In this document: piece by piece, positions 1,210-32,515 of the stretch
Position numbering within the stretch: the stretch's first letter is position 1
Layout of the letters: each line of letters starts with the position of its first letter
The notes under the pieces: model-generated
What the model saw: the letters and a program-made list of their open reading frames with translations, nothing else
The model's database searches: none
What the model was told of the DNA's origin: nothing
Made by a program: the position numbers and the translations under genes
NCBI GenBank assembly: GCA_022600535.1
Contig: JAHZKE010000079.1
Location: 1 to 43,078, forward strand
Length of the DNA: 43,078 bases
Direction of reading: 5' to 3'
DNA from: Pseudomonadota bacterium
GTDB taxonomy: Bacteria; Pseudomonadota; Gammaproteobacteria; Tethybacterales; Persebacteraceae

Positions 1210-1248
1210 TGAAACGATTACTCAAAAATTTAACTAAAATAATGCAAT

Positions 1249-3558: not shown

Positions 3559-3578
3559 TAATTAACAGCAGTAGTAAG

Positions 3579-4292
3579 ATGTGTAATTCCAATAATTGTT
3601 TACAGAATAACAGAGAAAAAATAAAGAAAAATAGATTGCAATATCGTTTATCGTGTCTCTGTGGCATGGCTGTGATAGGTATCATTATTGCAATTTGCTT
3701 TTATAAATGGGGTGCTTGTGCTTTAGGATTGTCAACAGATGATTGGATTACCAAAAATCTAACTCTTTTAATTCTCTCTTTACCGGTGCTGGTGCTTTTG
3801 TGGTATTTTCGCACCCACGATGTAAAACAACAAATTGAAAAAGCACAAAGCAATATTAATATCAATCTACTAAATAACGGTATTAATTTGCTACTGGATG
3901 TCGAAAAAACAGGTGGGAATAAACGCGCCGCTGGACTGATACTACTCGCCCAGTTGCGACAACAAGATGAGCAATTACATCCTCAAATTGATGCTATTAC
4001 TCAAGGAGTTGCACTAGAAAAAGTTAAACTAAGAAGAGCTCAATTACAAGGTATTAATTTGCAAGATGCTATTTTGCAATGTGCTAATTTGCGAGTTGCT
4101 GATTTGCAAGGTGCTCAATTGCAAGATGCTGATTTATATGGTGCTGATTTATATGGTGCTAAATTGCAAGGTGCTAATTTGGAAAGTGCTGATTTGCGAA
4201 GTGCTAATTTGCAAGATGCGCTTTATAGTAACAATACAAAATTTTCCGCTGGTTTTGACCCTGAAACCGAAGGAATGCAAAAAGTAGATTAA
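3579..4292 (+). CDS. Membrane-anchored pentapeptide-repeat protein (2 predicted TM helices + ~13 A(D/N)LxG repeats)
   Basis: Two hydrophobic segments are present (MAVIGIIIAICFY..., LTLLILSLPVLVLLWYF). They are followed by AQLQGINLQDAILQCANLRVADLQGAQLQDADLYGADLYGAKLQGANLESADLRSANLQDA. The start codon is uncertain (M1 or M30). Confidence 0.85.
   Translation: MCNSNNCLQNNREKIKKNRLQYRLSCLCGMAVIGIIIAICFYKWGACALGLSTDDWITKNLTLLILSLPVLVLLWYFRTHDVKQQIEKAQSNININLLNNGINLLLDVEKTGGNKRAAGLILLAQLRQQDEQLHPQIDAITQGVALEKVKLRRAQLQGINLQDAILQCANLRVADLQGAQLQDADLYGADLYGAKLQGANLESADLRSANLQDALYSNNTKFSAGFDPETEGMQKVD
4038..4232 (+). repeat. Coding tandem repeat with 15-nt period (pentapeptide units), including a perfect 15-nt duplication at 4128-4157
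   Basis: Units of the form GCTAATTTGCAAGGT / GCTGATTTGCAAGGT recur about 13 times. GCTGATTTATATGGT occurs twice back to back. Confidence 0.9.
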
Positions 4293-5942: not shown

Positions 5943-6019
<77 letters not shown>

Positions 6020-10002: not shown

Positions 10003-10066
10003 TTAGAATATCCGATAATTTTTGTATTACAATAAACAAATAATTACTGCCTTGGAGAAAAATAAT

Positions 10067-11131
10067 ATGCCGCTTTCGCTCTCTGCTTCCCAACTTGCTG
10101 ATTTTAATCGTGATGGTTTTTTAATCATTCCCGCGGTATTAACACAGCAGGATTTATCCGAAATTCGCAGTGCGATGGCGGCGCGTGTGGTAGATTTGTT
10201 ACAACGGTATCAGCGTTTAGGGCGGGGGAAGGGTAGTGTTGGCACCGACACCGCTGCCGATTTTTCCACTAACATCACCCACCTGCTACAAATTGCACCG
10301 GAGGCGTATCAACATATTGATATTTCCTTGCCGATGTTGCACGATTTAGCGGCGTGTCTGCCCGATTGGCAGGCGTTATTTGGTGATGCATGGCGCGATG
10401 AAGCGGGGATTTATGCCGATGCTTCTATTTTTTCTTTAGTAAGCCATCCGAATATTATTGCCATCGCCCAACAAATATTGGGGGAGGAAGTCATGGCGAG
10501 CCCGGTGCAACATGTGCGGATTAAACCACCGCAAAATTTACTCACCGGCAGTGCCGCGATTGATGCGAATACAGCGCGTACCCTGTGGCACCAAGATGAA
10601 GCCGTTGTTACCGAAGAGGCGCGCGGGGTGGATATTTTAACGGTGTGGGTGGCAATTAGCGATGCCACGTTGGAAAATGGCTGTATGCAGGCAGTCGCAG
10701 GTTCGCATACGGCGGCAGATGTTGCCGATATTGCCGACTTTGGTTTAGCCAGACATTGCCCAGGGAAGGGAGATTTAGTCGGTGAAATTTATATTCCCGA
10801 AGAAACCGTAGCCGCACTGCCGCGCACGCCGTTGTTGGCAAATGCCGGGGATGTCGTGCTGTTACACAAACGCACCCTACACGGTGCAGGTGCGAATGAA
10901 TCAAACGGCGTGCGTTGGAGTTTTGACATGCGTTACCAAGCGCTTGGCACCCCCAGCGGGCGCGAGCACTTCCCGCCTGCCATCGTTGCCAGCCACAACG
11001 CCGCGGAAATTGTGCAACATGCACAACAGTATCGCCAGCGTTGGCTACAGGCGCGCGATGCGATATTAGACGGCAGTGTAACGGCGGAATTTAATAGCCG
11101 GTGGAATAAATACGCGCCGATTTGTGCATAA
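10067..11131 (+). CDS. Fe(II)/2-oxoglutarate dioxygenase, phytanoyl-CoA dioxygenase (PhyH) family
   Basis: The N-terminus LADFNRDGFLIIPAVL is PhyH-like. A WHQDE (HxD) motif, a distal His in LHKRTLHGAG and an Arg in RWSFDMRY are present. The ATG at 10067 follows a GGAGA SD; the ORF-track start at 10022 is unlikely. Confidence 0.75.
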   Translation: MPLSLSASQLADFNRDGFLIIPAVLTQQDLSEIRSAMAARVVDLLQRYQRLGRGKGSVGTDTAADFSTNITHLLQIAPEAYQHIDISLPMLHDLAACLPDWQALFGDAWRDEAGIYADASIFSLVSHPNIIAIAQQILGEEVMASPVQHVRIKPPQNLLTGSAAIDANTARTLWHQDEAVVTEEARGVDILTVWVAISDATLENGCMQAVAGSHTAADVADIADFGLARHCPGKGDLVGEIYIPEETVAALPRTPLLANAGDVVLLHKRTLHGAGANESNGVRWSFDMRYQALGTPSGREHFPPAIVASHNAAEIVQHAQQYRQRWLQARDAILDGSVTAEFNSRWNKYAPICA

Positions 11132-22163: not shown

Positions 22164-23453
22164 TTATAAGGTTATCGTAACTTGCAACCCATGCGGTTGC
22201 CGATTCGTAGCCGTAATGCGCCCGCCGTGTGCTTTGACAATGGCAGCAACAATCGCCAACCCCAAACCAAACCCGCCGGTGTTGCGGGTGCGCGATTCAT
22301 CGGCGCGAAAAAAGGGCTCAAATAAATGCGGTAAATCTTTTTCGGCAACGCCTTGTCCATCATCGCTAATGTGAATATTAACTGCGCTGCCACTTTGTTG
22401 CAGATTAATATCAACGTGCTCGGCGTATTTAAGCGCATTGTCTAATAAGTTATTAATTGCCCTGCCGAATAATACCGGGTCTATGGTTAATGGTGCGGTG
22501 TTGGTCGTCGCACATACATGGTTGCGGATGCGTGTTTGTTCGTGGGGCGGACGCGCCTGTATTAGTTCTTGCAAAAATTGCGCGGCGGCGACTGATTGTT
22601 TATTCGCGCCCGAGTGCGCCGATTGCAAACGTGCATTTTGCAAAAGATCACTGGTGAGTGTTTCTAATTCTTTTAAATCCTTATCAATCGCCGCTTTTGC
22701 GCGCGGGTGGTCAACCATTTCTGCCGCCAATTTTAGGCGCGCAATCGGCGAGCGTAATTCATGCGAGGCGGCGATTAAAAAATTTTCCCGCGTGGTCAGC
22801 AGTTGTTGTAGACGTTCCTGCATGGTGTTAAATCCACGCGCTAATAAACCAATTTCATCGTCGCGGTTGCTGTGGTAAGGGCGCCATTCGCCGTCACCAA
22901 TCGCTTCCATATTGCGCCGCAGTATTGCTAAGGGGGCGAGTTGCCGCCGGATAATATAATAAACACTGCCCCAAATTAATAAAAAAGTTGTCAATGTGTA
23001 GAGCAGCAACGGCAGGGGAAGCGCAGAATGACGGTCGTGTTCTAATGAAATCATAATTTGCTGTTTTTTATGCGCGTAAAATAAATATAAATCGCCATCG
23101 GCTTGCATCAGCTTAAAATGGCGCGGTAGCCGTTTGGTGCGCAGGCGGAACTTGCGCTTGGGCGGGCGCAGTTGATTAAATTCCGGCATATCGTCATCGG
23201 TCACATGGCTAAAGTGCGGGTCGCGATAGCGGATGTCAATTTCTAATTCTTCGTCAAGGCGGTTTAAATTTTCTACCGTCGGTTCGCTTAATATGCTGTT
23301 GATGACTAAACGATTAACATTGCCGAAGCGTTGGGTGATTTTTTCGTGGGTCTCTTCTAATAAAAGATGTGCTGCGACAAAAAATACCATGCAAGTAACA
23401 ATAGCAGCCGCCAGTGCCAGTATGGTGAGTTTTATAAATAGCGAAAAGCGCAT
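22164..23453 (-). CDS. Sensor histidine kinase (2 TM, periplasmic domain, HAMP, HisKA, HATPase_c), CpxA-like
   Basis: The H-box is ASHELRSPIARL, the N-box is LLDNALKY and the G-boxes are DDGQGV and GGFGLGLAIV. The start overlaps the regulator stop (TAATG). Confidence 0.88.
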   Translation of the reverse strand: MRFSLFIKLTILALAAAIVTCMVFFVAAHLLLEETHEKITQRFGNVNRLVINSILSEPTVENLNRLDEELEIDIRYRDPHFSHVTDDDMPEFNQLRPPKRKFRLRTKRLPRHFKLMQADGDLYLFYAHKKQQIMISLEHDRHSALPLPLLLYTLTTFLLIWGSVYYIIRRQLAPLAILRRNMEAIGDGEWRPYHSNRDDEIGLLARGFNTMQERLQQLLTTRENFLIAASHELRSPIARLKLAAEMVDHPRAKAAIDKDLKELETLTSDLLQNARLQSAHSGANKQSVAAAQFLQELIQARPPHEQTRIRNHVCATTNTAPLTIDPVLFGRAINNLLDNALKYAEHVDINLQQSGSAVNIHISDDGQGVAEKDLPHLFEPFFRADESRTRNTGGFGLGLAIVAAIVKAHGGRITATNRQPHGLQVTITL

Positions 23454-24175
23454 TACGTTATTGCGGGGGCGGTATGATCACTAGCGGCAGCAATAAACGC
23501 ATAACCCGTATTGCGTACGGTTTTAATAAAACACGGTTTTTGTGCATTGTCGCCTAATTTTTGTCGCACGCGGCTGATCGTAATATCTAACGAACGATCG
23601 GCAAAATCAAATTCTAAACCATGCAGGCGGGCGCTGAGTTCATCGCGCGAAACGACTGCCGGACGTGCTTCTATCAGCACGGCTAAGGCGCGAAATTCAC
23701 CGCTGGTTAAAAACACCTCCTGCCAGCAATTGTCGTTATAAATTTTCACTTGCTGTGTGGCGAACGAAAAACGCAAGCCGGCAAAGTTTAAGGTCGCGTT
23801 ACTACTTGCCAATGTCGGACGGCGACACAAGGCGGTTAGGCGGGCGGCAAGTTCGCGCGGTTCAAAAGGTTTAGCAAGATAATCGTCGGCGCCGGTTTCT
23901 AAGCCGACAACACGGTCGGTCACTTCGCCGCGGGCGGATAACATCAGCAGCGGTAATTTACTGCCGCTACTGCGAATCTGGCGCACCAATTCAAACCCAT
24001 CCATTTCCGGCATCATGACATCAATAATGGCGGCGGCAAAATGTTGCTCGGCTATTTTTTTCAATGCTTGTGATGGACGATGGACGGCAACAATTTCAAA
24101 GTCAAAGCGTTGCAAATAGTCGCAGGTTAATTCGCATAGGGCAGGGTCATCTACCATGATAATTTTTTTAGCCAT
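23453..24175 (-). CDS. OmpR/PhoB-family response regulator, CpxR-like
   Basis: The receiver domain has IIMVDD, IIDVMMPEMDG and KPF. The C-terminal domain is a winged helix (ITISRVRQKL...VRNTGYAF). Confidence 0.9.
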   Translation of the reverse strand: MAKKIIMVDDPALCELTCDYLQRFDFEIVAVHRPSQALKKIAEQHFAAAIIDVMMPEMDGFELVRQIRSSGSKLPLLMLSARGEVTDRVVGLETGADDYLAKPFEPRELAARLTALCRRPTLASSNATLNFAGLRFSFATQQVKIYNDNCWQEVFLTSGEFRALAVLIEARPAVVSRDELSARLHGLEFDFADRSLDITISRVRQKLGDNAQKPCFIKTVRNTGYAFIAAASDHTAPAIT

Positions 24176-24254
24176 TATTGCGAATCATACAATGTTTAAC
24201 GAACAAATGTAACAGAAGGCGGGGTGTCAGCACATATTCGGCAAAGCCGCTATT

Positions 24255-24281
24255 AAATTCCCCTCCAGCGGAGGGGAATTT
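24255..24281 (-). other. Perfect 12-bp inverted repeat between the cpxP-like gene and the response-regulator gene
   Basis: AAATTCCCCTCC-AGC-GGAGGGGAATTT. No clean U tract follows on the minus strand, so this may be a processing or attenuation hairpin rather than a strong terminator. Confidence 0.4.
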
Positions 24282-24296
24282 TAACGGCAGGATTGA

Positions 24297-24833
24297 TTAG
24301 TAATGATTGGAGTGACGTTTATGTTTGCCATATCTCCCGCCTTGTAACAACATGTGCTCTACTCTTTGGGCGGCAATGCTACGTTGCTCTGGGGTCAGTA
24401 CCGCATGTACCTGCGCCATTGTCTCCGCCACTAAGGCGATATGCGTTTCCCGCATTTCGGCTTTGTGTTGTTCGTGGTCGCCATGTTTTTCTCGCAACAC
24501 GCGCTCAATTTCTTCAACACTCAATGTGCTCTTTTTCCATAATTGTTGGATGTCGCCATGTTTGGATTTGAGTTGTTGCTGCCGTTTTTCTATACTCTTG
24601 GCTAAAATAGCGGCGATTTTATCTTCTTGCGCATTGCTCAAATCTAAAACATCTTCTAAACGGTCGGCTATTTTTTCTGCCATCTGCATGGCACTTTTGT
24701 GTCCTTTGCCGTGGTGGTCATCGTGGTCGCCGTAGCCATAGCCACTGGCAAAAGCATTGCCGCTAATCAGTAAGGCGGCGCTTGTTGCAACAGCAAGTAG
24801 TAAGCGGGGGAGGTTGTTTTTTTGAGTTTGCAT
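24297..24833 (-). CDS. Periplasmic CpxP/Spy/ZraP-family protein (LTxxQ motifs, His-rich stretch)
   Basis: The signal peptide is MQTQKNNLPRLLLAVATSAALLISGNAFA. A His-rich stretch GDHDDHHGKGH follows. LSNAQEDKI and LTPEQRSIAAQR are LTxxQ-type motifs. I prefer the ATG at 24833 over the ORF-track start at 24941. Confidence 0.7.
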   Translation of the reverse strand: MQTQKNNLPRLLLAVATSAALLISGNAFASGYGYGDHDDHHGKGHKSAMQMAEKIADRLEDVLDLSNAQEDKIAAILAKSIEKRQQQLKSKHGDIQQLWKKSTLSVEEIERVLREKHGDHEQHKAEMRETHIALVAETMAQVHAVLTPEQRSIAAQRVEHMLLQGGRYGKHKRHSNHY

Positions 24834-24924
24834 GAGTATGCTCCTGGTAAAGATAAATGTGCGATGCACAGGGTGAATTGTATAGACGCCAACCGCTAAA
24901 AGCGTTGCTGTTGTGATGCAATTT

Positions 24925-24939
24925 GTAACAAAATGTAAC
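24925..24939. promoter_or_regulatory. Direct repeat GTAAC-N5-GTAAC (CpxR-box-like) upstream of the cpxP-like operon
   Basis: tGTAACaaaatGTAACa has a 10-bp period. It lies about 92-106 nt upstream of the 24833 start codon. The E. coli CpxR consensus is GTAAA-N5-GTAAA. Confidence 0.35.
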
Positions 24940-25082
24940 AAAGAAACCTGCCGTGTAGATTGCCCGGGGGGAAGGGATTAATGTTTTTGTTGTATTTAAT
25001 TGAAAATATTCACCAAATTTAAAAAAATAATTGTAAATTAATTCAATTTTTATTTAAAAGTAGTACAATAAGTATAGTTTCA

Positions 25083-26612
25083 TTGCTTCATGAGAGTAAC
25101 CCATTGAAAAAATCACACAAAACAAAAGATAAATTGATTGCCGCAACAATAGAAAGCGTCTATCAACACGGATATAACGACACCACGGTTGCTAAAATCA
25201 GCGATTTAGCGGATACTTCGTTAGGGACCTTACATCATTATTTTTCCAGTAAGGAAGATTTATTAGAACAAACAATGCGCTCGTTATTGCGTTCAATGCA
25301 CGAACGATTGAGTAACAGCACCATTGCGACTAGCAGCCCGCGCGGTAAATTATGGGCAGTGATTGAAGCCGTATTAGGCGACGAACAAGCAGAAGATAAA
25401 ACAACGGCGGTGTGGTTTGCGTTTTGGTTGCAAGCTGAGCATGACGAAGATTTGCGCCGCTTGCGCGATTTATACAACCGCCGTTTGCAATCCAATGTCA
25501 GTAGTTATTTGCGGCAGATTTTACAAGAAATCGGCGCTAGCAATGTAGAAGATCGCGTGCGTGGCGGTACGATGATGTTAATTTCATTCATGCACGGCGT
25601 TTGGGTCAGCTATGCATTGCGCGAAGAACTCGCACAAGATTTAGCGAGTGCGCGCTTGCTGGTGTGGGAGTGTTTGGAAATGTTTTTATCGCGCGCGCGC
25701 GAATCATTGACCGCAGAAGAAGCGACCATTGCCACTTCCGCCGGCTTATTGAGCGATGTGAGTATTGAAATTATCGGTGCCGACATGAAAAAATTGCCGC
25801 AATGGCGCGAATACGCAGAAAACGAAACACCGATTTACATCCCCCATTTTCGTAATGCGGCACAGTTGTCGGATAAGGTGCGTATGGCAGCGCAATTAAT
25901 TGACCAACAATTAAAACCCGTGGTACACATTGCCGCGCGTAATGTGCAAGATGTTGCCGAGTTAGAGCGCACAGTTGCCGGCATGACCGGTGTGGGGGTG
26001 GAAGAATTTTTGCTATTGGGCGGCGGTGAACCAAAACCCGTTGGTGAATTTGAAAATGTCATGCAGATATTGTCTTCCGGCGTATTAGAGCGGCATGGTG
26101 TTAAACGGGTCGGTTTTGCCGGTCATCCGGAAGCACATCCAGACCAGCCGCGTGATGTCATGCGGCGCGCATTGACTGAAAAAATCGTCACCGCCAAAGC
26201 GTTAAATATGGAGTGCAGTATCGTTACGCAATTTTGCTTTGCCGTCCGCCCGTTTTTTGACTTTTTGGATTGGACCAAAGAACAACAATTTGATGTGCCG
26301 GTGCGCTTAGGGATTGCCGGCAGGGTTAATGCGGCAAAGTTGATTAAATTCGCCGCCGCTTGCGGCATTGGGCGTTCTCTGACCTTTGTCAAACGTCAAT
26401 TTAAAAAAACCATGCCATTGGTTAATTACTCTCCCGAAGGATTGTTGGCAGAATTATCTGCCGGAATCGCCGTGCGTGAGTATCCTTTTCCAGTTAATGT
26501 TCACTTTTATCCCTTTGGGACGGTAACGGAAACATTAACTTTAGTATCTGTTGCTGTCATGGGTTCAGACAGTCCAGCTACTTCACTTATCACCGAACCC
26601 AATCGCCATTAA
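25083..26612 (+). CDS. In-frame fusion: BetI-like TetR-family regulator (aa ~1-205) + divergent methylenetetrahydrofolate reductase-like domain (aa ~225-509)
   Basis: The N-terminus has a TetR HTH (TTVAKISDLADTSLGTLHHYFSSKEDLL) and a BetI-like core (AVWFAFWLQAEHDEDLRRLRDLYNRRLQSN). The C-terminal half aligns by eye to the MetF strands. Pairs, with this protein first: VSIEII/VSFEFF, VVHIAAR/APHLTC, FLLLGGG/IVALRGD, VGFAGHPEAHP/VAAYPEVHP, IVTQFCF/AITQFFF and VHFYPFG/FHFYTLN. The start is a TTG (25083 or 25104); no ATG is available. Confidence 0.7.
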   Translation: MLHESNPLKKSHKTKDKLIAATIESVYQHGYNDTTVAKISDLADTSLGTLHHYFSSKEDLLEQTMRSLLRSMHERLSNSTIATSSPRGKLWAVIEAVLGDEQAEDKTTAVWFAFWLQAEHDEDLRRLRDLYNRRLQSNVSSYLRQILQEIGASNVEDRVRGGTMMLISFMHGVWVSYALREELAQDLASARLLVWECLEMFLSRARESLTAEEATIATSAGLLSDVSIEIIGADMKKLPQWREYAENETPIYIPHFRNAAQLSDKVRMAAQLIDQQLKPVVHIAARNVQDVAELERTVAGMTGVGVEEFLLLGGGEPKPVGEFENVMQILSSGVLERHGVKRVGFAGHPEAHPDQPRDVMRRALTEKIVTAKALNMECSIVTQFCFAVRPFFDFLDWTKEQQFDVPVRLGIAGRVNAAKLIKFAAACGIGRSLTFVKRQFKKTMPLVNYSPEGLLAELSAGIAVREYPFPVNVHFYPFGTVTETLTLVSVAVMGSDSPATSLITEPNRH

Positions 26613-26623
26613 GGAGAAAAAAA

Positions 26624-27958
26624 ATGTCTATAAAAAATTTAAATGATGCTGGTGCCACTTGGCCCACGGATCAATCTGCGTTAAAAAAACGCCGCGTGCC
26701 GATTCAGTTACGGCAAAGTGGTGATTCACGCGTAGAACCGGGGGACGAAGGGTTAGTTGCCGAAGGGTCACGTATCCTCATTGACCAGCGTATCCGCAAG
26801 GGTCCTTACTGGCATTTGTCGCAGGCAGCGGGGTGTTGGTGTCATTCGGTCTATAACCGTATTTATCATCCGCGTGCCTACATTAAGCCCGAAGATGGCG
26901 GTTTGATGGAAGAATACAAATACTTAACCGAGCACGTTACCATGTGGAACGTTGCGGTAGAACGCCAAATCCAAGTCAAAGGTCCCGATGCAGAGAAATT
27001 TGTTGACCAAGTCATTACCCGTCGTGCCAGCTCTTGCGCCGTCATGAAAGCGCGTTATGTCATTTTGTGCAACCAATACGGCGGTATCTTAAACGATCCT
27101 GTTTTGTTGCGTCCCGCAGAAGACGAATTTTGGTTCTCGCTCTCCGATTCTGATTTAGAGCTTTGGTTACAAGGCGTGAACGCATTCAGTCAATACGATG
27201 TGGAAATTCACGAAATTGATGTTGCCCCAGTGCAAATTCAAGGACCGAAATCGGTACAGTTGATGCGGAAAATTTTCGGCGCCGCCATTGATGAAGTGCC
27301 TTACTACGGTTTGATGAAAGGTGTTATCGGTGGGCGTGATGTTATTATCTCGCGTTCGGGTTTCTCTGCCGAAGCCGGTTATGAAATTTATCTCTACAAC
27401 GCACACGAGTGTGCCGAAGATATGTGGAATGCCGTATTGGAAGCAGGTAAAGAATTTAATTTACGTGTTATCGCACCGGGACATCATCGCCGCATTGAAG
27501 CGGGTATTTTGTCATGGGGACAAGATATGGATCAGGAAGTCAATCCGTTTGAAGTTGGCTTGGGCTGGCAGGTTGATTTCTCCAAAGATTCCTTTATCGG
27601 TAAAGAAGCGTTAGAAAAAATCCAAAAAGAAGGGGTGAGCCATAAACTATGCGGTGTGCGCATGGGCGGCAAGCCGATTACTTGGTATCCTTCTGACTAC
27701 TACCATGTGTTTGATCAAGAGGGCAAGCAATTATTGGGATATTTGACATCGGCTTGGTTTTCGCCAACGCAAGATTCTAATATCGCTTTTGCGTTTGTTC
27801 CGACCGCATCTACAACATTAGGCACCAAGCTGAAAGTTGCGATGCCAGAGGTCTATGGTGGCGGATTGGTTGACGCGGAAGTCGTACAAACCCCGTTTAA
27901 AAAACCGCACGATGCGGGTACGGGCTTGTCCACAACTGGTAAAAAATTAGAGTCCTAA
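26624..27958 (+). CDS. Aminomethyltransferase (GcvT)-family THF-dependent demethylase, DmdA-like
   Basis: HVTMWNVAVERQIQVKGPDAEKF, GGILNDPVLLRPAEDEFWFSLSDSDL, DVEIHEIDVAPVQIQGPKS, IISRSGFSAEAGYEIY and RRIEAGILSWGQDM are present. Block order and spacing resemble my recollection of DmdA-type demethylases. The gene starts 11 nt after the fusion gene. Confidence 0.72.
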   Translation: MSIKNLNDAGATWPTDQSALKKRRVPIQLRQSGDSRVEPGDEGLVAEGSRILIDQRIRKGPYWHLSQAAGCWCHSVYNRIYHPRAYIKPEDGGLMEEYKYLTEHVTMWNVAVERQIQVKGPDAEKFVDQVITRRASSCAVMKARYVILCNQYGGILNDPVLLRPAEDEFWFSLSDSDLELWLQGVNAFSQYDVEIHEIDVAPVQIQGPKSVQLMRKIFGAAIDEVPYYGLMKGVIGGRDVIISRSGFSAEAGYEIYLYNAHECAEDMWNAVLEAGKEFNLRVIAPGHHRRIEAGILSWGQDMDQEVNPFEVGLGWQVDFSKDSFIGKEALEKIQKEGVSHKLCGVRMGGKPITWYPSDYYHVFDQEGKQLLGYLTSAWFSPTQDSNIAFAFVPTASTTLGTKLKVAMPEVYGGGLVDAEVVQTPFKKPHDAGTGLSTTGKKLES

Positions 27959-28013: not shown

Positions 28014-28083
28014 GCGCGGCTTTCCCCGCGCGTAGAGTTAAAAACAAGTCGCTCACTGAGCCCGGCACCTGCTTTTGCAGGTT
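28014..28083 (+). repeat. Dispersed intergenic repeat, copy C (GCGCGG-hairpin + CGCGTAGAGTTAAAA + GGCACCTGCTTTTGCAGGT)
   Basis: It shares the core and the GGCAC block with copies A, B and D. It contains hairpins GCGCGG/CCGCGC and ACCTGC-TTTT-GCAGGT. Confidence 0.5.
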
Positions 28084-28084
28084 A

Positions 28085-29665
28085 TTATTGCACGTCAATT
28101 AATTCGGGGGGTAAGTGCTTTTTGGCGTACTTTAAATGGAGTTTATTTTCCTTGAAGAAATCAAATAACGTATCGTCTATTTCTTGTTCTTCTGCCATAT
28201 TTTCCATAATAGACATGACGCGTGACAGTGTCATTTTAACATTGCGGTACGGGCGATCGGGCGCACTTAATCCTTCAAAGCGGTCTGCTAATCCCAACAC
28301 CCGCGCGGGTAAATCCATATCATCGCCGGTGAGTTTATTGGGATAACCGGATCCATTCAAAGTTTCGTGGTGCGCGCCGGCGATTTCAACCACTCGCTTT
28401 AAATTGGACGGCCAAGGAATAGAAGACAGGAGGCGAATCGAAATACTCACATGATCCTCCATAATTTTACGTTCTTCAGGGTTGAGCGTGCCGCGTTTAA
28501 TTTTTAAATTATTAAGCTCTTCGCTATCAATCACTTGCTGGGTTATTAATTTTTCGTTGTTCGTATTCGGGGATTCAATCATGCGTTCGGCAATCGTTTC
28601 TAAGCGTTTGGTCACTTCTTCATCAATAAAGACATTGCCAGCGTTGACTTCCCCTAAAAATTGGTAGTCCTCACTGTACTTTTTTTCTGTTGATGAGATT
28701 AAATGTTCTAACCCTTCTTCGCGCAACTTCTGTTCCGTCTGTTGTAGTTGGCGGGCAAGTTCCCATGCACGCATACGTTCATAGAGCAAAGAAATTTTAT
28801 CATTTACAGTATGTAGCTTGGTTCTTTTATCTAAAATGTGTAACGGAGTGATGATTTTTCCAATATCATGTAATAAAGCGGCAATGCGTAACTCTCGCCG
28901 TTGTTCAGTCGTGAGGGAAAAATCTTTATATATTGGATGTTTTTTTGTTTTTTCTAATTCTTCAACAATCATCATGGTTATCTCGACTACCCGTTGACAG
29001 TGTCCTGCCGTATGCGGGGATTTTTCATCAATTGCCACGCCAATCATTTGGATAATTGCCGACATTAATTCCTGTGTCTCGTTGACCAATAAGGCATTGC
29101 TTAGCATCGTGCCGATTTGTCCAGCAATGGCATCAACAAACGTTTGCATATAATCGGAAAAAACATCTTTGTCGCAATTGATGAGCTGTAACACGCCGAT
29201 TACTTTATTGTTGTGCCCGACCAAGGGCAGGATGAGTAAATTGTGGGTTTCGTAGTTGTTGTTTTTGTCAAATTGACGCGTATTATTGAAATTAAATTCG
29301 GTATCGTCATCAAGTGAATTAATTAATATTTTGCGATTTTGCAGATAACTGCACACGGAGACGGTACGCAAGTTGGGTTCGCCATCAATGCGGGTAGGAA
29401 CTTCAATAAAACCATCGATCTTAAGCGCATCAAAGGTATCAACGACTTTGCTAATCCCCAGTGTCTTATTGCCAATGACGACAACTTTTAAGGTCTCGCT
29501 GGCGTGGTCGTAAATATATAACGAACCGCCATCCGCGCTGGTGATGTCGCGGACCGAATCTAATAATTCAGTGAATATTTGGGAAAATCCCTTCCCACTA
29601 GAAAAAATATGCCCGGTATTAATGAGCATTGCTAACATTTTATCGGCAGATACTTTTTGCGTCAT
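28085..29665 (-). CDS. GAF-domain HD-GYP protein (putative c-di-GMP phosphodiesterase)
   Basis: The N-terminal GAF-like region has ADGGSLYIYD...LKVVV. HD motifs are HTAGHCQRV and LLHDIGKI. The C-terminal motif is GAHHETLNGSGYP. About 110 aa of coiled-coil-like sequence are inserted between the HD and GYP parts. Confidence 0.82.
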   Translation of the reverse strand: MTQKVSADKMLAMLINTGHIFSSGKGFSQIFTELLDSVRDITSADGGSLYIYDHASETLKVVVIGNKTLGISKVVDTFDALKIDGFIEVPTRIDGEPNLRTVSVCSYLQNRKILINSLDDDTEFNFNNTRQFDKNNNYETHNLLILPLVGHNNKVIGVLQLINCDKDVFSDYMQTFVDAIAGQIGTMLSNALLVNETQELMSAIIQMIGVAIDEKSPHTAGHCQRVVEITMMIVEELEKTKKHPIYKDFSLTTEQRRELRIAALLHDIGKIITPLHILDKRTKLHTVNDKISLLYERMRAWELARQLQQTEQKLREEGLEHLISSTEKKYSEDYQFLGEVNAGNVFIDEEVTKRLETIAERMIESPNTNNEKLITQQVIDSEELNNLKIKRGTLNPEERKIMEDHVSISIRLLSSIPWPSNLKRVVEIAGAHHETLNGSGYPNKLTGDDMDLPARVLGLADRFEGLSAPDRPYRNVKMTLSRVMSIMENMAEEQEIDDTLFDFFKENKLHLKYAKKHLPPELIDVQ

Positions 29666-29704
29666 GTTTTTAAGAGATGCGAAAGAAGACGAATGACAGA
29701 AAAT

Positions 29705-30082
29705 TTAGCGAGGTTTAACGCTTTTTTTAGCTCCTAATTTTTCTAAGATACGAGCGGATTTACCGCTACGCTCGCGTAAATAATATAGTTTAGAACGTCG
29801 TACATCGCCATTGCGTACCACTTGCACGCTTTCAATCAAAGGCGAATGGAGTTGAAAAGTGCGTTCAATATTTTCACCCGAAGAGGTACGACGCACGATG
29901 AAAGAAGCGTTGATACCGCTTTTGCGCCGTGCAATGACCATTCCTTCAAACGCTTGTACACGACGATTGTTGCCGTCAACAACGTAATTTTTAACAATGA
30001 CCTTATCGCCAGCAGCGAAAGGCGGGATTTTTTTGTCAAGCCGTGTAACTTCTTCTTGTTCCAGTGTTTGTATAATGTTCAT
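29705..30082 (-). CDS. rplS: 50S ribosomal protein L19
   Basis: [11 protein letters not shown]..., [32 protein letters not shown] and FIVRR...[13 protein letters not shown] are canonical L19 sequence. Confidence 0.95.
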
Positions 30083-30230
30083 CGCAGAAACCCTTGGTGG
30101 GAAAATAATTGAATCTTCCTCCGCATTGCGAATGGGAAGTAGAAAACAACGTATATTTTAGCAAAAATAATGCAAATATTTTCATCTCTGGCTTCTTTAA
30201 TTTTTTTAATTTTGGTTATAATGGCGAGGT

Positions 30231-31499
30231 ATGCGATTATTTTTCTTGTGGGCAGCGTTTATCGTCGGGGCGTGGGGTGTGCCCTTCGTAAATGCAGCAG
30301 AACCAATGGATGCTATTATTGCGATTGTCGGCGATGTGCCGATCACACAGACGCAAGTGGAGCGCGAAAGCAAACGTTTGGAGAATTTAAATGAAGGAAT
30401 AACAGCGCGTGAAGCGCGGCAGGAGGCGCTTGATGAATTAATTGATCGCAGCGTACAAAAACAACTGGCGCAGCGGCTGGGAATCCACATTTCCGATGCT
30501 TTGCTGGCGGCACGGATTGAAGAATTACAACAAGAATTGGGCTTTAGCAATGAGGCGGAACTCGGCCGTATTGCCGCCGACGAATTTTTAATGTCGTATC
30601 CGATGTTTCGCGAACGGGTGCGCGATGATATGCTGATACAGGCATTATTTTTTCGCGAAGTGTTTTCCCGCACACAGGTCTATAAAGATGAGGTTAATCA
30701 ATTTCTTAAATTTGAAACAGCGATCGGTAATTTACGCGAATATCATTTGCGTCATATTTTAATTAGTGTTGCCGATGACGGTACAGATATTGATGAAAAA
30801 CAGGATTTAGCCCTTTCATTACAGGCGCGTGCCGCGACGGGAGAAGATTTTGCCCAGTTGGCACGCGAGTATTCCGACGGCGATGCAGCCAGCAGCGGTG
30901 GTAATTTAGGGTTTAAAAAAGAAGAGGAATTGCCCGAGGCGTTTGTCGTTGAATTGCAAAACATCAATGAAGGAGAAATCAGCGAGGTCATCAATACTTC
31001 GCGCGGTTTTCATTTTCTCAAATTGGAAGCGACGCGCGGGGGGAATATTCGCGAAGCCATCACCCGCTTACGGATTAGTCACGTATTTTTACCGTTAACG
31101 GAAGAAGCAGAAGCCCGTGAGTTGTGGAATACCATTAAAAATGAAGAGGACTTTATTGCCGCGGTGGGGCAGCATTCAGTAGATGAAAAAAGTATTGATA
31201 AAGGCGGTGATATTGGTTGGTTTGATGAGCAGGATATTCCGGTGTATTTTGCCGATACCGTCAAACAGATGAAAGTCGGAGATATTAGCCCGCCGGTGAA
31301 ATCACCTTTTGGTTGGCATTTGTTGCATCTACGTGACAGCAAAAAAGAAGCCCTAAATATTCAAGGGTTGCGTGAACAGGCGCGGCGCGTATTGCGCGAG
31401 CGACGGGCATTGGCGCAGCGGGATGTTTGGATCCGGCGTTTGCGTGCGGACACCTATGTGCGTATTTTAGATCCGACATTTGAATACACCATTCGCTAA
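30231..31499 (+). CDS. surA: Periplasmic chaperone / peptidyl-prolyl isomerase SurA
   Basis: A signal peptide is followed by an N-terminal SurA chaperone domain (DAIIAIVGDVPITQTQV). Two parvulin-like domains are present (HILI..., GGNLGF..., GGDIGWF..., FGWHLL). The gene lies upstream of pdxA. Confidence 0.88.
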   Translation: MRLFFLWAAFIVGAWGVPFVNAAEPMDAIIAIVGDVPITQTQVERESKRLENLNEGITAREARQEALDELIDRSVQKQLAQRLGIHISDALLAARIEELQQELGFSNEAELGRIAADEFLMSYPMFRERVRDDMLIQALFFREVFSRTQVYKDEVNQFLKFETAIGNLREYHLRHILISVADDGTDIDEKQDLALSLQARAATGEDFAQLAREYSDGDAASSGGNLGFKKEEELPEAFVVELQNINEGEISEVINTSRGFHFLKLEATRGGNIREAITRLRISHVFLPLTEEAEARELWNTIKNEEDFIAAVGQHSVDEKSIDKGGDIGWFDEQDIPVYFADTVKQMKVGDISPPVKSPFGWHLLHLRDSKKEALNIQGLREQARRVLRERRALAQRDVWIRRLRADTYVRILDPTFEYTIR

Positions 31500-31531
31500 T
31501 TGTTGGCGGTAAGACGCCGAATAAAGCCATT

Positions 31532-32515
31532 ATGAAGCCATTAATCATTACGATGGGAGAGCCAGCCGGTATTGGGGCGGAACTCTGCTTGCACTTGTTA
31601 GCAGACCCGGCATTGCCGCCATTGGTGGTATTGGGGGATCGTACTATTTTGGCACAGCGGGCGCAACAATTTGGTTTGCCCTTTACCGCCACCGATTACG
31701 TCGCCAATGCGCCGGCACCGGTAACCCGTGCCGTGTGGCACGTGCCAGCACCGGTGGCAGTTGTTGCCGGCAAACCGCAGGTGGAAAATGCCGAATATAT
31801 ATTACAACAATTACAACTGGCGGCAGCGGGGTGTCAGCGGCAGGAATTTTCGGCGTTGGTGACCGCGCCGATTAGTAAAGAAACTATTTTAGCCGCCGGC
31901 ATTCCTTTTGTTGGACAAACCGAATACTTGGCGCAATGCGCCGGAGTGCAACGCACAGTGATGCTATTGGCAGCACCGGCGATGCGGGTTGCCTTAGCGA
32001 CAACACACTTGCCGTTGCGAGCGGTAGCGGAGGCGTTGAGCGAGGAATCGTTATTAGCCGTATTGACGATACTCAACAGCGAATTGCGTCGCTGTTTTAA
32101 TTTATCCGCGCCGCCGCGCATTAAGGTGTGCGGCTTAAACCCACATGCAGGTGAGGGAGGATATTTAGGCGATGAAGAACAGCGAATTATTGCCCCCGCA
32201 ATTAAACAAGCGCAACAGCAAGGAATGCACGTAGAAGGACCGTATCCAGCAGATACCTTGTTCGCGACAACACGCTTGGCGCAGGCAGATTGCATTTTGG
32301 CGATGTATCACGACCAAGGGCTACCGGCGATTAAATTATTAGATTTTGAAAACACCATCAATATCACCTTGGGCTTGCCATTTATCCGCACCTCGCCCGA
32401 TCACGGCGTTGCCTTAGACATTGCCGCCGCCGGTGGTGCCAACCCGCAAAGTATGTTCACCGCCGTACATTTTGCCGCAATGCACCAGTCGCCGTGCAAT
32501 CCTCATCACGATTAA
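31532..32515 (+). CDS. pdxA: 4-hydroxythreonine-4-phosphate dehydrogenase
   Basis: MKPLIITMGEPAGIGAEL, GLNPHAGEGGYLG, MYHDQGL and IRTSPDHG are present. The surA-pdxA synteny is conserved. Confidence 0.92.
   Translation: MKPLIITMGEPAGIGAELCLHLLADPALPPLVVLGDRTILAQRAQQFGLPFTATDYVANAPAPVTRAVWHVPAPVAVVAGKPQVENAEYILQQLQLAAAGCQRQEFSALVTAPISKETILAAGIPFVGQTEYLAQCAGVQRTVMLLAAPAMRVALATTHLPLRAVAEALSEESLLAVLTILNSELRRCFNLSAPPRIKVCGLNPHAGEGGYLGDEEQRIIAPAIKQAQQQGMHVEGPYPADTLFATTRLAQADCILAMYHDQGLPAIKLLDFENTINITLGLPFIRTSPDHGVALDIAAAGGANPQSMFTAVHFAAMHQSPCNPHHD

What the first reader, a model, noticed from the sequence alone, without database searches (positions are those of the whole stretch)
25083..26612. Complete BetI-like TetR repressor fused in frame to a divergent MetF-like methylene-THF reductase
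The 509-aa ORF contains a full-length TetR-family protein in its first ~205 aa. This part has both the HTH and a BetI-like ligand-binding core. A ~20-aa linker (SLTAEEATIATSAGLLSD) follows, then a domain that aligns strand by strand with MetF (see the feature evidence). TetR proteins are normally stand-alone one-component regulators of about 200 aa. I know of no described TetR::MTHFR fusion.

The layout recalls trigger enzymes such as PutA and BirA, where a DNA-binding domain is fused to an enzyme of the regulated pathway. The next gene, 11 nt downstream, is a THF-dependent demethylase that would generate 5-methyl-THF, the MetF substrate in the oxidative direction. The MetF-like domain is divergent: GGGE replaces the RGD block that carries a folate-contacting Asp in E. 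coli MetF. It could therefore be a folate- or flavin-sensing module rather than an active enzyme. The AT-rich upstream region holds inverted repeats that could be operators (AATTG-N10-CAATT at 25029-25048, and ATTGAA...TTCAAT).
Basis: partly seen in the sequence, partly recalled or inferred. Interest (0 to 1): 0.72.

Follow-up and report, generated by a model that had tools for sequence, protein, structure and literature searches.

The report
BetI repressor fused to methyl-THF oxidase
A single conserved gene in sponge- and sea-slug-associated bacteria joins a betaine/choline-type DNA-binding repressor to a folate-recycling enzyme, directly upstream of the demethylase that would feed that enzyme; this gene layout appears undescribed and could link gene control to one-carbon metabolism.

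Summary
ORF 25083-26612 encodes one polypeptide. It has a full BetI-type TetR repressor (aa 1-203), a 23-aa connector and an MTHFR TIM barrel (aa 227-494).

It is not an assembly artefact. About 55 protein clusters (44-74% identity) carry the same gap-free junction, including nine species-representative genomes. All named genomes among them belong to Ca. Tethybacterales (sponge and nudibranch symbionts). Among 1.84 billion cluster representatives the architecture occurs only in this family.

The C-terminal half is more specific than "divergent MetF". It is closest to the type-4 (S6MTHFR) enzymes, which oxidise CH3-THF and pair with THF-dependent demethylases (PDB 7XG9: E 8.5e-39, TM 0.91).
- Conserved in 32/32 members: the equivalents of Ec Glu28, His88, Lys172, Gln183 and Phe223.
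- Changed: Asp120 is Gly, with an acid one residue later in 30/32.
- Lost: the Leu-Pro NADH-blocking motif.

A DmdA-like GcvT-family gene follows in every locus where the downstream sequence is held (13 of 13 complete, plus one truncated by a contig end).

Best reading: a self-regulating two-gene operon for demethylating a betaine-type osmolyte, in which the repressor and the CH3-THF oxidase are one protein. Cross-talk between the halves (a trigger enzyme) is possible but untested. The proposed operators are only weakly supported.

The parts
24942..25082 (+). AT-rich upstream spacer holding the presumed promoter and candidate BetI-type operator half-sites: ATTGAA 24999-25004, TTCAAT 25042-25047, AATTG-N10-CAATT 25029-25048, and a possible -10 TACAAT at about 25056-25061.
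   Evidence: The sequence is. Inverted repeats are only 71-90% complementary. The promoter scan is at chance level. BetI-like half-sites are enriched upstream in the window's subclade, 9 against 3.2+-1.7, P~0.002, in a post hoc test. The E. coli BetI box used for comparison is.
25083..26612 (+). Fusion gene, 509 aa (alternative TTG start at 25104 gives 502 aa): BetI-type TetR repressor, connector, type-4-like MTHFR.
   Evidence: A conserved full-length family is shown.
25134..25271 (+). TetR_N helix-turn-helix DNA-binding domain (aa 18-63).
   Evidence: Pfam PF00440, E 3e-12. Y27, G30, T35, I39, A43, F54 and K57 are invariant in 32 homologues.
25338..25646 (+). BetI-type ligand-binding and dimerisation core (TetR_C_6, aa 86-188). 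The helical TetR fold extends to aa 203 (nt 25691).
   Evidence: Pfam PF13977, E 2e-16. NCBIfam BetI PRK00767 scores 140 bits, above 118. The aromatic and signature residues W111, F114, W115, R134, L135, S137, N138, G172 and W174 are shared with E. coli BetI. The AF2 model has helices over residues 7-203.
25692..25760 (+). Connector (aa 204-226). It is 23 residues long in 24 of 32 family members. Its second half (ATSAGLLSD) corresponds to the N-terminal segment of S6MTHFR.
   Evidence: pLDDT is below 50 only for residues 211-217.
25761..26564 (+). MTHFR TIM-barrel domain (aa 227-494), S6MTHFR/type-4-like. Key positions: catalytic Glu229 (25767-25769), GGGE 313-316 (26019-26030), GHPEAHP 347-353, Lys367, Thr-Gln-Phe 382-384 (26226-26234), Phe423...Cys427, Tyr-Pro-Phe-Gly 476-479.
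26565..26609 (+). Poorly conserved, disordered C-terminal tail ending ...PNRH. Many homologues end N-[IV]-H.
26613..26623 (+). 11-nt spacer with a GGAG ribosome-binding site for the downstream gene, implying co-transcription.
   Evidence: Spacers are 11-72 nt with a GGAG-type element in the loci examined (in L068 the two genes overlap, so no spacer could be read).
26624..27958 (+). Partner gene: 444-aa GcvT-family, DmdA-like THF-dependent methyltransferase (public name 'aminomethyl transferase family protein').
   Evidence: Pfam GCV_T plus GCV_T_C. NCBIfam DmdA scores 293 bits, below its cut-off of 410. The best PDB match is P. ubique DmdA 3TFH, E 5e-61. It lies downstream of the fusion in every locus where downstream sequence is held: 13 of 13 complete, plus L067 truncated by a contig end, at 80-87% identity.
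28067..28082 (+). Weak terminator-like hairpin between the convergent partner gene and the HD-GYP gene. It is a possible end of the operon.
   Evidence: The number of such sites in the region equals the chance expectation, so this is tentative.

Best explanation
The gene encodes a bifunctional protein that heads a two-gene operon for THF-dependent demethylation of a betaine-type compound. The substrate is probably glycine betaine, or DMSP, taken from the animal host.

N-terminal half. It is a BetI-type TetR repressor. It is inferred to dimerise, bind an operator in the AT-rich spacer upstream of its own gene, and release DNA when a quaternary-amine or sulfonium ligand fills its aromatic pocket.

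C-terminal half. It is a type-4 (S6MTHFR-like) FAD enzyme. It oxidises the 5-methyl-THF made by the downstream DmdA-like methyltransferase back to 5,10-methylene-THF. This regenerates THF carriers and feeds C1 units into metabolism. Its electrons go to an acceptor other than NAD(P)+, possibly ETF/ETF-QO.

Shown:
- both folds and their signature residues;
- the conserved fusion and fixed-length connector;
- the invariant pairing with the demethylase gene;
- the restriction to Tethybacterales-type symbionts.

Inferred:
- DNA binding and the identity of the ligand;
- enzymatic activity and direction;
- the substrate of the partner enzyme;
- autoregulation.

Whether the two halves signal to each other is left open. 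The default is that they act side by side, with the fusion fixing a 1:1 stoichiometry.
For: The fusion is real and under selection.
- About 55 clusters at 44-74% identity share a gap-free junction.
- Nine GTDB species representatives carry it, on chromosomes of 1.7-2.05 Mb.
- Both halves are equally conserved: HTH 59%, TetR core 56%, MTHFR 57%. The connector is 23 aa in 24/32 members.

BetI identity.
- Pfam TetR_N and TetR_C_6 both match.
- NCBIfam BetI scores above its cut-off.
- Signature residues are shared with E. coli BetI.

Type-4 MTHFR identity.
- 7XG9 matches at E 8.5e-39, and the model superposes at TM 0.91, against about 0.67-0.75 for canonical MetF chains.
- The helix-alpha8 F..C motif and the loop beta8-alpha11 YPFG motif are present.
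- The equivalents of Ec E28, H88, G119, K172, Q183, F184 and F223 are conserved in 32/32 members.
- S6MTHFR is experimentally a CH3-THF oxidase that ignores NADH and couples to THF-dependent demethylases (PMC11868366).

Pathway logic.
- The DmdA-like partner lies downstream in every locus where the sequence is held, behind short spacers with GGAG-type ribosome-binding sites.
- In another lineage (L071) the orthologous partner (79% identity) is preceded by a stand-alone S6-like MTHFR and has a dimethylglycine-dehydrogenase-like gene nearby. In L072 it sits next to soxBDAG.
- In L004 the operon continues into betA, a choline dehydrogenase above its NCBIfam cut-off.
- ETF-beta and ETF-alpha genes are transcribed divergently from the fusion in L001 and L010; ETF-QO is also seen in L001.
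- Tethybacterales carry glycine-betaine/proline transporters (PMC8546597).

Operator hints.
- BetI-like half-sites are enriched upstream in the window's subclade.
- Good palindromes lie at -50 to -110 in other subclades.
Against: - There is no experimental evidence for any activity.
- The Asp120/Asp107 equivalent, important for folate binding and catalysis in E. coli MetF (my own knowledge of the mutagenesis literature), is Gly or Ser. The neighbouring acid is missing in 2/32 members.
- The type-4 Leu48-Pro49/Arg78 motif that blocks NADH is absent (PHFR and Asn instead). The acceptor specificity and reaction direction could therefore differ from S6MTHFR.
- Pfam MTHFR and NCBIfam MetF/DmdA models score below their curated cut-offs.
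- Operator evidence is marginal. Generic palindromes reach 9/15 loci in 16 of 300 shuffles, and the half-site test was post hoc.
- The window itself has no bet, ETF or transporter genes within 43 kb.
- The substrate of the partner enzyme is unknown.
Confidence: 0.6

Rival explanations
1. True trigger enzyme. The MTHFR half acts as catalyst and as sensor. Occupancy by CH3-THF, or reduction of its FAD, repositions the TIM barrels relative to the TetR dimer through the short fixed-length connector and alters operator binding. Operon expression would then follow C1 flux or redox state as well as, or instead of, a betaine-type ligand, as in PutA.
For: - The connector length is fixed at 23 aa in 24/32 members, and its sequence is conserved across 44-74% divergent proteins.
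- The fusion has been kept stable throughout the clade, and no verified two-gene orthologue was found.
- Both halves are under equal constraint.
- S6MTHFR undergoes an induced fit of helix alpha8 on CH3-THF binding (PMC11868366).
- A repressor made in enzyme-level amounts needs some way to be switched off.
Against: - There is no direct evidence of inter-domain contact. The AF2 pTM is only 0.60 and connector residues 211-217 are low-confidence.
- The BetI ligand pocket is intact, so a separate small-molecule switch already exists.
- Genome-reduced symbionts can fix fusions neutrally.
Confidence: 0.25
2. The MTHFR-like half is a non-catalytic folate- or flavin-binding sensor domain (a pseudoenzyme) that serves the repressor.
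For: - The Asp120/Asp107 equivalent is replaced by Gly, and the Leu-Pro motif is lost.
- Curated MTHFR models score below their cut-offs.
- There is precedent for enzyme folds recruited as sensors, for example MocR/GabR regulators (my own knowledge).
Against: - The equivalents of catalytic Glu28 and Gln183, and of His88, Lys172 and the YPE-HP block (assigned to the flavin site from my memory of the E. coli structure), are invariant in 32/32 members.
- An acid is retained at +1 in 30/32.
- The same Asp loss occurs in stand-alone relatives adjacent to CmuA-like methyltransferases, which need a working CH3-THF oxidase.
- The operon has no other MTHFR to recycle the demethylase product, whereas L071 pairs the orthologous demethylase with a stand-alone MTHFR.
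Confidence: 0.1
3. Assembly or sequencing artefact, or a recent pseudogene-type read-through of two adjacent genes (betI and metF).
For: One related contig (L005) shows the two halves in different frames.
Against: - The L005 split is a 1-nt deletion relative to the near-identical P0047. It lies on a 7.6x long-read contig whose gcvT-like gene also carries an indel.
- Fourteen other loci from independent assemblies, including closed chromosomes, have the continuous ORF with a conserved junction.
Confidence: 0.01

Closest known systems
S6MTHFR / type-4 MTHFR (Sphingobium lignivorans SYK-6 MetF; PDB 7XG9, 7XLF; Yu et al. 2025, PMC11868366)
   Same: - Same TIM-barrel fold (TM 0.91, rmsd 2.2 A, 29% identity).
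- Glu21 and Gln175 are conserved, as are the helix-alpha8 Phe...Cys and loop beta8-alpha11 Tyr-Pro-Phe-Gly motifs.
- The gene is adjacent to a THF-dependent, GcvT-fold methyltransferase.
   Different: - It is fused to a TetR repressor, whereas S6MTHFR is a stand-alone monomer.
- Asp107 is replaced by Gly, with Glu or Asp one residue later.
- The Leu48-Pro49/Arg78 NADH-blocking motif is replaced by Phe-Arg/Asn.
- The partner is DmdA-like rather than LigM, DesA, CmuAB or Dmt.
- Activity has not been tested.
BetI (E. coli b0313), the choline-responsive TetR-family repressor of betIBA/betT
   Same: - Same two-domain TetR architecture with the BetI-type C-terminal domain.
- 30% identity, with shared signature residues.
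- Scores above the NCBIfam PRK00767 cut-off.
- BetI-like ATTGA/TCAAT half-sites lie upstream in the window's subclade.
- In L004 it is linked to betA.
   Different: - It carries a 300-aa enzyme domain at its C-terminus.
- It scores below the stricter TIGR03384 cut-off.
- It is not next to betAB or betT in the window.
- It heads a catabolic demethylation operon rather than an osmoprotectant synthesis operon.
Trigger enzymes with an intrinsic DNA-binding domain (PutA, BirA, NadR). This comparison rests on my own knowledge.
   Same: One polypeptide combines a DNA-binding domain with an enzyme of the pathway it presumably regulates.
   Different: - The DNA-binding domain here is a complete ligand-binding TetR, not a small RHH or wHTH module, so it already has its own sensor pocket.
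- No evidence yet shows that catalysis controls DNA binding.
DmdA (DMSP demethylase; P. ubique, PDB 3TFH), for the partner gene
   Same: It is the best PDB and NCBIfam match. It has the GcvT fold and is expected to make CH3-THF.
   Different: - The score of 293 bits is below the DmdA equivalog cut-off of 410.
- It has an N-terminal extension of about 50-90 aa.
- Its genomic neighbours elsewhere (dimethylglycine dehydrogenase, soxBDAG, betA) point to glycine betaine at least as much as to DMSP.

Membership tests
TetR family, BetI subfamily | N-terminal TetR-type HTH (PF00440) | tested here: met
   aa 18-63 match at E 3e-12, 46.5 bits, above the gathering score of 24. The HTH residues are invariant in the family.
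TetR family, BetI subfamily | BetI-type C-terminal ligand-binding/dimerisation domain (PF13977) | tested here: met
   aa 86-188 match at E 2e-16, 60.9 bits, above 27. The model has helices over residues 7-203. Foldseek matches TetR structures at TM 0.76-0.86.
TetR family, BetI subfamily | Scores as BetI with curated equivalog models | tested here: inconclusive
   PRK00767 scores 140 bits, above its cut-off of 118. TIGR03384 scores 151 bits, below its cut-off of 201.
TetR family, BetI subfamily | Choline- or betaine-responsive repression of bet genes | not testable with these tools
   Only contextual hints are available: betA downstream in L004 and BetI-like half-sites upstream.
MTHFR superfamily (PF02219) | Sequence match to the MTHFR model at the curated threshold | tested here: not met
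   The single sequence scores 21.5 bits against a gathering score of 24, and TIGR00676 scores 39.5 against 293. A profile of the subfamily does hit canonical MTHFR structures at E 1e-10 to 1e-17, and 7XG9 at 1e-89.
MTHFR superfamily (PF02219) | (beta/alpha)8 barrel superposable on solved MTHFRs, with the catalytic Glu and Gln | tested here: met
   Foldseek gives 7XG9 TM 0.91 and E. coli, Thermus and Haemophilus MetF TM 0.65-0.75. The Ec Glu28 and Gln183 equivalents are conserved in 32/32 members.
Type-4 (S6MTHFR-type) MTHFR | Catalytic triad Glu21 / Asp107 / Gln175 | tested here: not met
   Glu and Gln are invariant. Asp107 is Gly (30/32) or Ser (2/32), with Glu or Asp at +1 in 30/32.
Type-4 (S6MTHFR-type) MTHFR | Loop beta2-alpha3 Leu48-Pro49 (with Arg78), which blocks NADH | tested here: not met
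   The fusion clade has P-H-F-R in place of T-F-L-P, and Asn in place of Arg78.
Type-4 (S6MTHFR-type) MTHFR | Helix alpha8 Phe215...Cys219 motif | tested here: met
   The fusion clade has F/Y at the first position and mostly C (otherwise S, once L) at the second. The window has F423...C427.
Type-4 (S6MTHFR-type) MTHFR | Loop beta8-alpha11 Pro268-Phe269 (Y-P-F-G) | tested here: met
   F-Y-P-F-G is present in nearly all members. The window has it at 475-479.
Type-4 (S6MTHFR-type) MTHFR | Genomic coupling to a THF-dependent demethylase | tested here: met
   A DmdA-like GcvT-family gene lies directly downstream in every locus where the sequence is held: 13 of 13 complete, plus one truncated by a contig end.
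Type-4 (S6MTHFR-type) MTHFR | FAD-dependent CH3-THF oxidation without NADH reactivity | not testable with these tools
   This needs enzymology.
Trigger enzymes (PutA/BirA/NadR type) | DNA-binding domain and pathway enzyme in one polypeptide | tested here: met
Trigger enzymes (PutA/BirA/NadR type) | DNA binding controlled by the enzyme's substrate or catalytic state | not testable with these tools
   The only indirect hint is the fixed connector length.
DmdA (partner gene 26624-27958) | Scores above the DmdA equivalog cut-off | tested here: not met
   PRK12486 scores 293 bits, below its cut-off of 410. DmdA is nevertheless the best PDB hit.

The most novel reading that the evidence does not exclude
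The protein would be a new kind of one-component regulator: a TetR repressor whose DNA binding is set jointly by a host-derived betaine-type osmolyte (in the BetI pocket) and by the folate or flavin state of its own covalently attached CH3-THF oxidase. That would make it the first TetR-family trigger enzyme, tying expression of a demethylation operon directly to cellular C1 and redox flux. As a corollary, its conserved partner would be a previously uncharacterised THF-dependent glycine-betaine (or related onium compound) methyltransferase that is widespread in marine bacteria, and ETF would be the long-sought physiological electron acceptor of type-4 MTHFRs.
Probability: 0.2. Interest if true: 0.8.

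Novelty: new variant of a known kind. Interest (0 to 1): 0.58.

Why it matters
- TetR regulators are among the most numerous bacterial one-component systems, and almost all are stand-alone proteins of about 200 aa (my own knowledge). A stably inherited TetR-enzyme fusion would be a natural experiment in coupling a metabolic enzyme to a repressor.
- It extends the type-4 MTHFR family, defined only in 2025, in three ways: a new partner (a DmdA-like methyltransferase), a new ecological setting (animal symbionts), and a variant active site that lacks the canonical Asp and the NADH-blocking Leu-Pro.
- The divergent ETF/ETF-QO genes in some loci suggest a testable candidate for the unknown electron acceptor of these enzymes.
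- The very conserved partner enzyme may be an unrecognised THF-dependent route for glycine-betaine or DMSP demethylation.
- If the two halves merely act side by side, the finding is a tidy Rosetta-stone confirmation that BetI-type regulation, demethylation and CH3-THF oxidation form one functional unit.

Tried and rejected
1. A 'split' orthologue (L005: a TetR gene overlapping an MTHFR gene by 4 nt) looked at first like the unfused ancestor. It was rejected. It differs from the near-identical P0047 by a 1-nt deletion, and the adjacent gcvT-like gene on the same 7.6x long-read contig also has an indel.

2. The closest stand-alone MTHFR-like protein (P0061/L065, 44% identity) has no TetR remnant or demethylase nearby. 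It says nothing about the origin of the fusion.

3. P0245 is a 199-aa stand-alone BetI-like TetR, 47-54% identical to the fusions' N-domains. Its genomic context could not be recovered; the metagenome scan gave only one weak hit.

4. MTHFR-like proteins with 60-110-aa extensions (P0249, P0283, P0295 and others) were checked as possible independent fusions. No extra Pfam domain was found.

5. Direct alignment of the upstream regions for phylogenetic footprinting failed because they are too diverged.

6. Operator and promoter tests gave weak results.
- A generic palindrome test was only marginal.
- TTGAA-N-TTCAA is not enriched in the window.
- Promoter and terminator scans are at chance level.

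7. An Rfam scan found no riboswitch (THF, SAM or glycine) near the operon, only a tRNA at 5943-6016.

8. An internal translation start producing a separate MTHFR was considered and rejected. No Met is conserved at the junction, and the first downstream Met (M235) lies after the catalytic Glu229.

9. Literature coverage was limited.
- the type-4 MTHFR paper (PMC11868366);
- three Tethybacterales or nudibranch papers (PMC10262491, PMC13393909, PMC8546597);
- the public database names.
Taylor et al. 2021 and the TetR-family review could not be retrieved.

Full report
**Observation**

Window 25083-26612 (+) is an uninterrupted 509-codon ORF that starts at TTG.
- A second in-frame TTG at 25104 gives the 502-aa product that public gene callers chose (P0001).
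- Pfam places a TetR_N helix-turn-helix at aa 18-63 and the BetI-type TetR_C_6 domain at aa 86-188. Both are well above threshold.
- Pfam also gives a sub-threshold MTHFR match at aa 265-429, 21.5 bits against a gathering score of 24.
- NCBIfam scores the N-terminal half as BetI: PRK00767 gives 140 bits against a cut-off of 118.
- The next ORF (26624-27958) starts 11 nt after the stop, behind a GGAG. It is a GcvT-family protein (GCV_T plus GCV_T_C). Its best curated match is DMSP demethylase DmdA, but below the cut-off (293 against 410 bits).

**Is the fusion real?**

Yes.
- A homology search returned about 55 clusters of 490-530-aa proteins, 44-74% identical to the query over more than 93% of its length. 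Several lie on contigs of 1.4-3.2 Mb.
- An alignment of 32 of them runs through the junction almost without gaps, and the junction itself is conserved: '...VWECLEMLLSRAREPL-x8-VATSAxLL...SxE'.
- The connector between the last TetR helix and the first barrel strand is exactly 23 residues in 24 of 32 proteins.
- The HTH, TetR core and MTHFR parts are about equally conserved, with 59%, 56% and 57% mean pairwise identity.
- A scan of one genome per GTDB species found the full-length fusion in nine species. These include Ca. Persebacter sydneyensis, Ca. Zeuxoniibacter abyssi and sea-cave 'Gammaproteobacteria' MAGs. All other hits were stand-alone MTHFR-like genes.
- P0017 comes from Ca. Doriopsillibacter californiensis, a Tethybacterales symbiont of a nudibranch.
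- An exhaustive HMM search of 1.84 billion cluster representatives found only two full-length representatives, P0020 and P0055. The architecture is therefore confined to this one narrow family.
- The one apparent two-gene version (L005) is a single-base deletion relative to the near-identical P0047. It lies on a 7.6x long-read contig whose neighbouring gene also carries an indel. I do not count it as a real split.

**What the C-terminal half is**

- phmmer against the PDB gives one strong hit, 7XG9/7XLF (E 8.5e-39). Canonical Thermus MetF scores only E 1e-4.
- 7XG9 is S6MTHFR of Sphingobium lignivorans SYK-6, the founding member of the 'type 4' MTHFRs (Yu et al. 2025, PMC11868366). It is a monomeric FAD enzyme that oxidises CH3-THF to CH2-THF and barely reacts with NADH. 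It is encoded next to THF-dependent demethylases (LigM, DesA, CmuAB, Dmt), and its physiological electron acceptor is unknown.
- An AF2 model built from the family alignment has mean pLDDT 84. It shows TetR helices over residues 7-203 and a barrel over 227-494, with only residues 211-217 of the connector below pLDDT 50.
- The model superposes on 7XG9 with TM 0.91 and rmsd 2.2 A, against TM 0.65-0.75 for E. coli, Thermus and Haemophilus MetF.
- A profile of the subfamily hits 7XG9 at E 1e-89 and canonical MTHFRs at 1e-10 to 1e-17.

**Active-site audit**

With E. coli MetF and S6MTHFR as references, all 32 fusion proteins keep the equivalents of:
- Ec Glu28 (window E229), His88 (H282), Gly119 and Lys172 (K367);
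- Gln183-Phe184 (Q383-F384);
- Phe223 (F or Y).

Two of the three type-4 signature motifs are also present: helix alpha8 Phe...Cys, and loop beta8-alpha11 Tyr-Pro-Phe-Gly.

Two features are not kept.
- Ec Asp120/S6 Asp107 is Gly (30/32) or Ser (2/32), followed by Glu or Asp in 30/32. The block reads 'LGGG[E/D]', whereas the closest orphan relative has 'LGGD'.
- The Leu48-Pro49/Arg78 motif, which sterically excludes NADH in S6MTHFR, is replaced by Phe-Arg/Asn.

Loss of the Asp is not unique to the fusion. It recurs in several stand-alone lineages, including ones next to CmuA-like corrinoid methyltransferases (L006, L054, L056, L058), where a working CH3-THF oxidase is expected.

I therefore read the domain as a probably active but divergent type-4-like enzyme. 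Its acceptor specificity may differ from that of S6MTHFR. By the published motif definition it is not a strict member of type 4.

**What the N-terminal half is**

It is a complete BetI-type TetR.
- It is 30% identical to E. coli BetI. It shares the HTH residues, the aromatic-rich 'VW(L/F)AFW' and 'HG(A/V)W' segments, and the 'RRLxSN' segment.
- It therefore has its own ligand pocket and does not need the MTHFR barrel as a sensor.
- A 199-aa stand-alone relative (P0245, 47-54% identical) ends exactly where the connector begins. I could not recover its context.

**Context and pathway**

- The fusion-then-partner pair is present in every locus where downstream sequence is held: 13 of 13 complete, plus L067 truncated by a contig end. 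Spacers are 11-72 nt with GGAG-type ribosome-binding sites in the loci examined; in L068 the two genes overlap.
- The partner is far more conserved than the fusion (80-87% against 46-73%).
- Everything else varies. The window has only housekeeping neighbours: a CpxP-like LTXXQ protein and a two-component system upstream, and an HD-GYP gene downstream.
- L004 continues into a bona fide betA.
- L001 and L010 have divergent ETF-beta/alpha genes, and L001 also has ETF-QO.
- Some loci carry aldehyde dehydrogenases.
- The partner family ('aminomethyl transferase family protein') extends at 70-79% identity into unrelated genomes, and at 65% into a eukaryote.
- In L071 the partner is preceded by a stand-alone S6-like MTHFR that keeps the Asp ('LGGDNDKP'). 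A dimethylglycine-dehydrogenase-like gene lies nearby and there is no TetR.
- In L072 it sits beside soxBDAG.
- In L069/L070 a BHMT-like S-methyltransferase is nearby.
- Tethybacterales are reported to carry glycine-betaine/proline transporters (PMC8546597).

A free-standing GcvT fold can only take a methyl group from an activated donor such as a sulfonium, a quaternary ammonium or an aryl methyl ether (this is inference from known chemistry). Together with the BetI-type regulator and these neighbours, that points to glycine betaine or DMSP as the substrate and CH3-THF as the product.

**Regulatory DNA**

Evidence here is weak.
- The window's spacer is AT-rich, and its inverted repeats are imperfect. 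Promoter-like hits are at chance level.
- Across 15 loci, GC-containing palindromes at -130 to -20 occur in 9 loci, against 5.4+-1.8 in shuffles; 16 of 300 shuffles reach 9. Examples are a perfect AACTAACTAGTTAGTT in L001 and TGGTA-N5-TACCA in L011 and L013.
- E. coli BetI's box (TTATTGATTGGACGTTCAATATAA) has ATTGA/TCAAT half-sites. Such half-sites are enriched upstream in the window's own subclade: 9 against 3.2+-1.7, P~0.002, in a post hoc test. In the window they lie 37 nt apart rather than forming a compact palindrome.
- No riboswitch is present.

**Mechanism**

Most likely (confidence about 0.6 for the overall picture), this is a self-regulated two-gene operon.
1. The BetI domain represses the operon until a betaine-type ligand arrives.
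2. The partner enzyme transfers a methyl group to THF.
3. The fused type-4-like MTHFR oxidises CH3-THF to CH2-THF and passes the electrons to a non-pyridine acceptor. ETF is a candidate, given its divergent position in two loci.

The fixed-length, conserved connector and the absence of any verified unfused orthologue leave room for real coupling between catalysis and DNA binding, that is, a trigger enzyme (about 0.25). A purely sensory pseudoenzyme (about 0.1) is disfavoured by the invariant catalytic and flavin-site residues. An artefact is essentially excluded.

**Comparison with what is known, and novelty**

- Each half belongs to a known family: BetI-type TetR, and the MTHFR superfamily closest to type 4.
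- The concept of an enzyme-regulator fusion is known from PutA, BirA and NadR (my own knowledge).
- The combination appears undescribed. NCBI names the protein 'transcriptional regulator BetI' and JGI names it 'methylenetetrahydrofolate reductase (NADPH)'.
- The type-4 MTHFR paper does not mention fusions, TetR or DmdA.
- The Tethybacterales and nudibranch papers I could read do not mention the locus.
- My literature coverage was limited by repeated time-outs of the search tool.
- I classify the finding as a new variant of a known kind, of moderate to good interest. It becomes high interest if inter-domain signalling, the ETF link or a new betaine demethylase is demonstrated.

Noticed in passing
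window 26624-27958; L069-L072: The DmdA-like partner ('aminomethyl transferase family protein') is unusually conserved. It is 80-87% identical within the symbiont clade, 70-79% in unrelated genomes of 1.6-9 Mb, and 65% in a eukaryotic (eukprot) entry. It scores below the DmdA cut-off. Elsewhere it sits beside dimethylglycine-dehydrogenase-like, soxBDAG, BHMT-like and betA genes. It may be an uncharacterised THF-dependent glycine-betaine or onium-compound methyltransferase.
   Followed up: partly
L001 4504-7816 and L010 4001-5685: ETF-beta and ETF-alpha genes (plus ETF-QO in L001) are transcribed divergently from the fusion gene. In L001 the shared spacer holds a perfect 16-bp palindrome, AACTAACTAGTTAGTT. 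ETF is a candidate for the unknown electron acceptor of type-4 MTHFRs.
   Followed up: partly
window 26565-26609; alignment A1 C-termini: The C-terminal tails are otherwise unconserved (14% identity), yet about half of the family ends in ...N-[IV]-H or P-x-H followed by TAA (window: PNRH-TAA-GGAG). No explanation was found. It could reflect a protein-level signal or a constraint from the adjacent ribosome-binding site.
   Followed up: partly
L005 7900-8100 and 9230-9330: This contig (7.6x long-read assembly, rich in ankyrin-repeat genes) has 1-nt indels in both the fusion gene and the gcvT-like gene. The indels produce a spurious 'TetR + MTHFR' gene pair in public gene calls (P0060).
   Followed up: yes
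P0245 (no locus recovered): This is a 199-aa stand-alone BetI-like TetR, 47-54% identical to the fusions' N-domains, ending exactly at the start of the connector. It may be an unfused relative from a sister lineage.
   Followed up: partly
L006, L024, L032/L034/L052, L043, L054/L056/L058: The catalytic Asp (Ec Asp120 / S6 Asp107) has been lost independently in several stand-alone S6MTHFR-like lineages: Methylobacter/Methylomonas 'AGGN', Xanthobacter/Ancylobacter 'AGSQ' next to CmuA-like genes, and 'GGGV' next to a CmuA-like gene. The residue may be dispensable in this branch of the family.
   Followed up: partly
window 22164-24941 and 28085-32515; L066: Gene order around the pair is syntenic with L066: histidine kinase, OmpR-type regulator and LTXXQ/CpxP-like protein upstream on the minus strand; GAF-HD-GYP, ribosomal protein L19, SurA and PdxA downstream. 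L066 has an extra HNH/ScoMcrA-like gene inserted just upstream of the fusion.
   Followed up: no
window 24915-24937: A direct repeat, TGTAACAAAATGTAACAA, lies within the first codons of the longest (TTG-start, 24941) reading of the divergent LTXXQ ORF, about 150 nt upstream of the fusion gene. Its function is unknown.
   Followed up: no
window 31-4292 and 5943-6016: The left end of the window carries an AAA_14/DUF4143 ATPase, a type I/III restriction-enzyme helicase subunit (ResIII plus EcoEI_R_C) and a pentapeptide-repeat protein, followed by a tRNA gene. This may be a small defence or mobile island.
   Followed up: no
window 10022-11131; L072 9423-10376: A PhyH-family dioxygenase is encoded in the window, 15 kb from the operon. 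Another PhyH gene lies immediately downstream of the orthologous GcvT-like gene in L072. A possible link to quaternary-amine catabolism was not examined.
   Followed up: no
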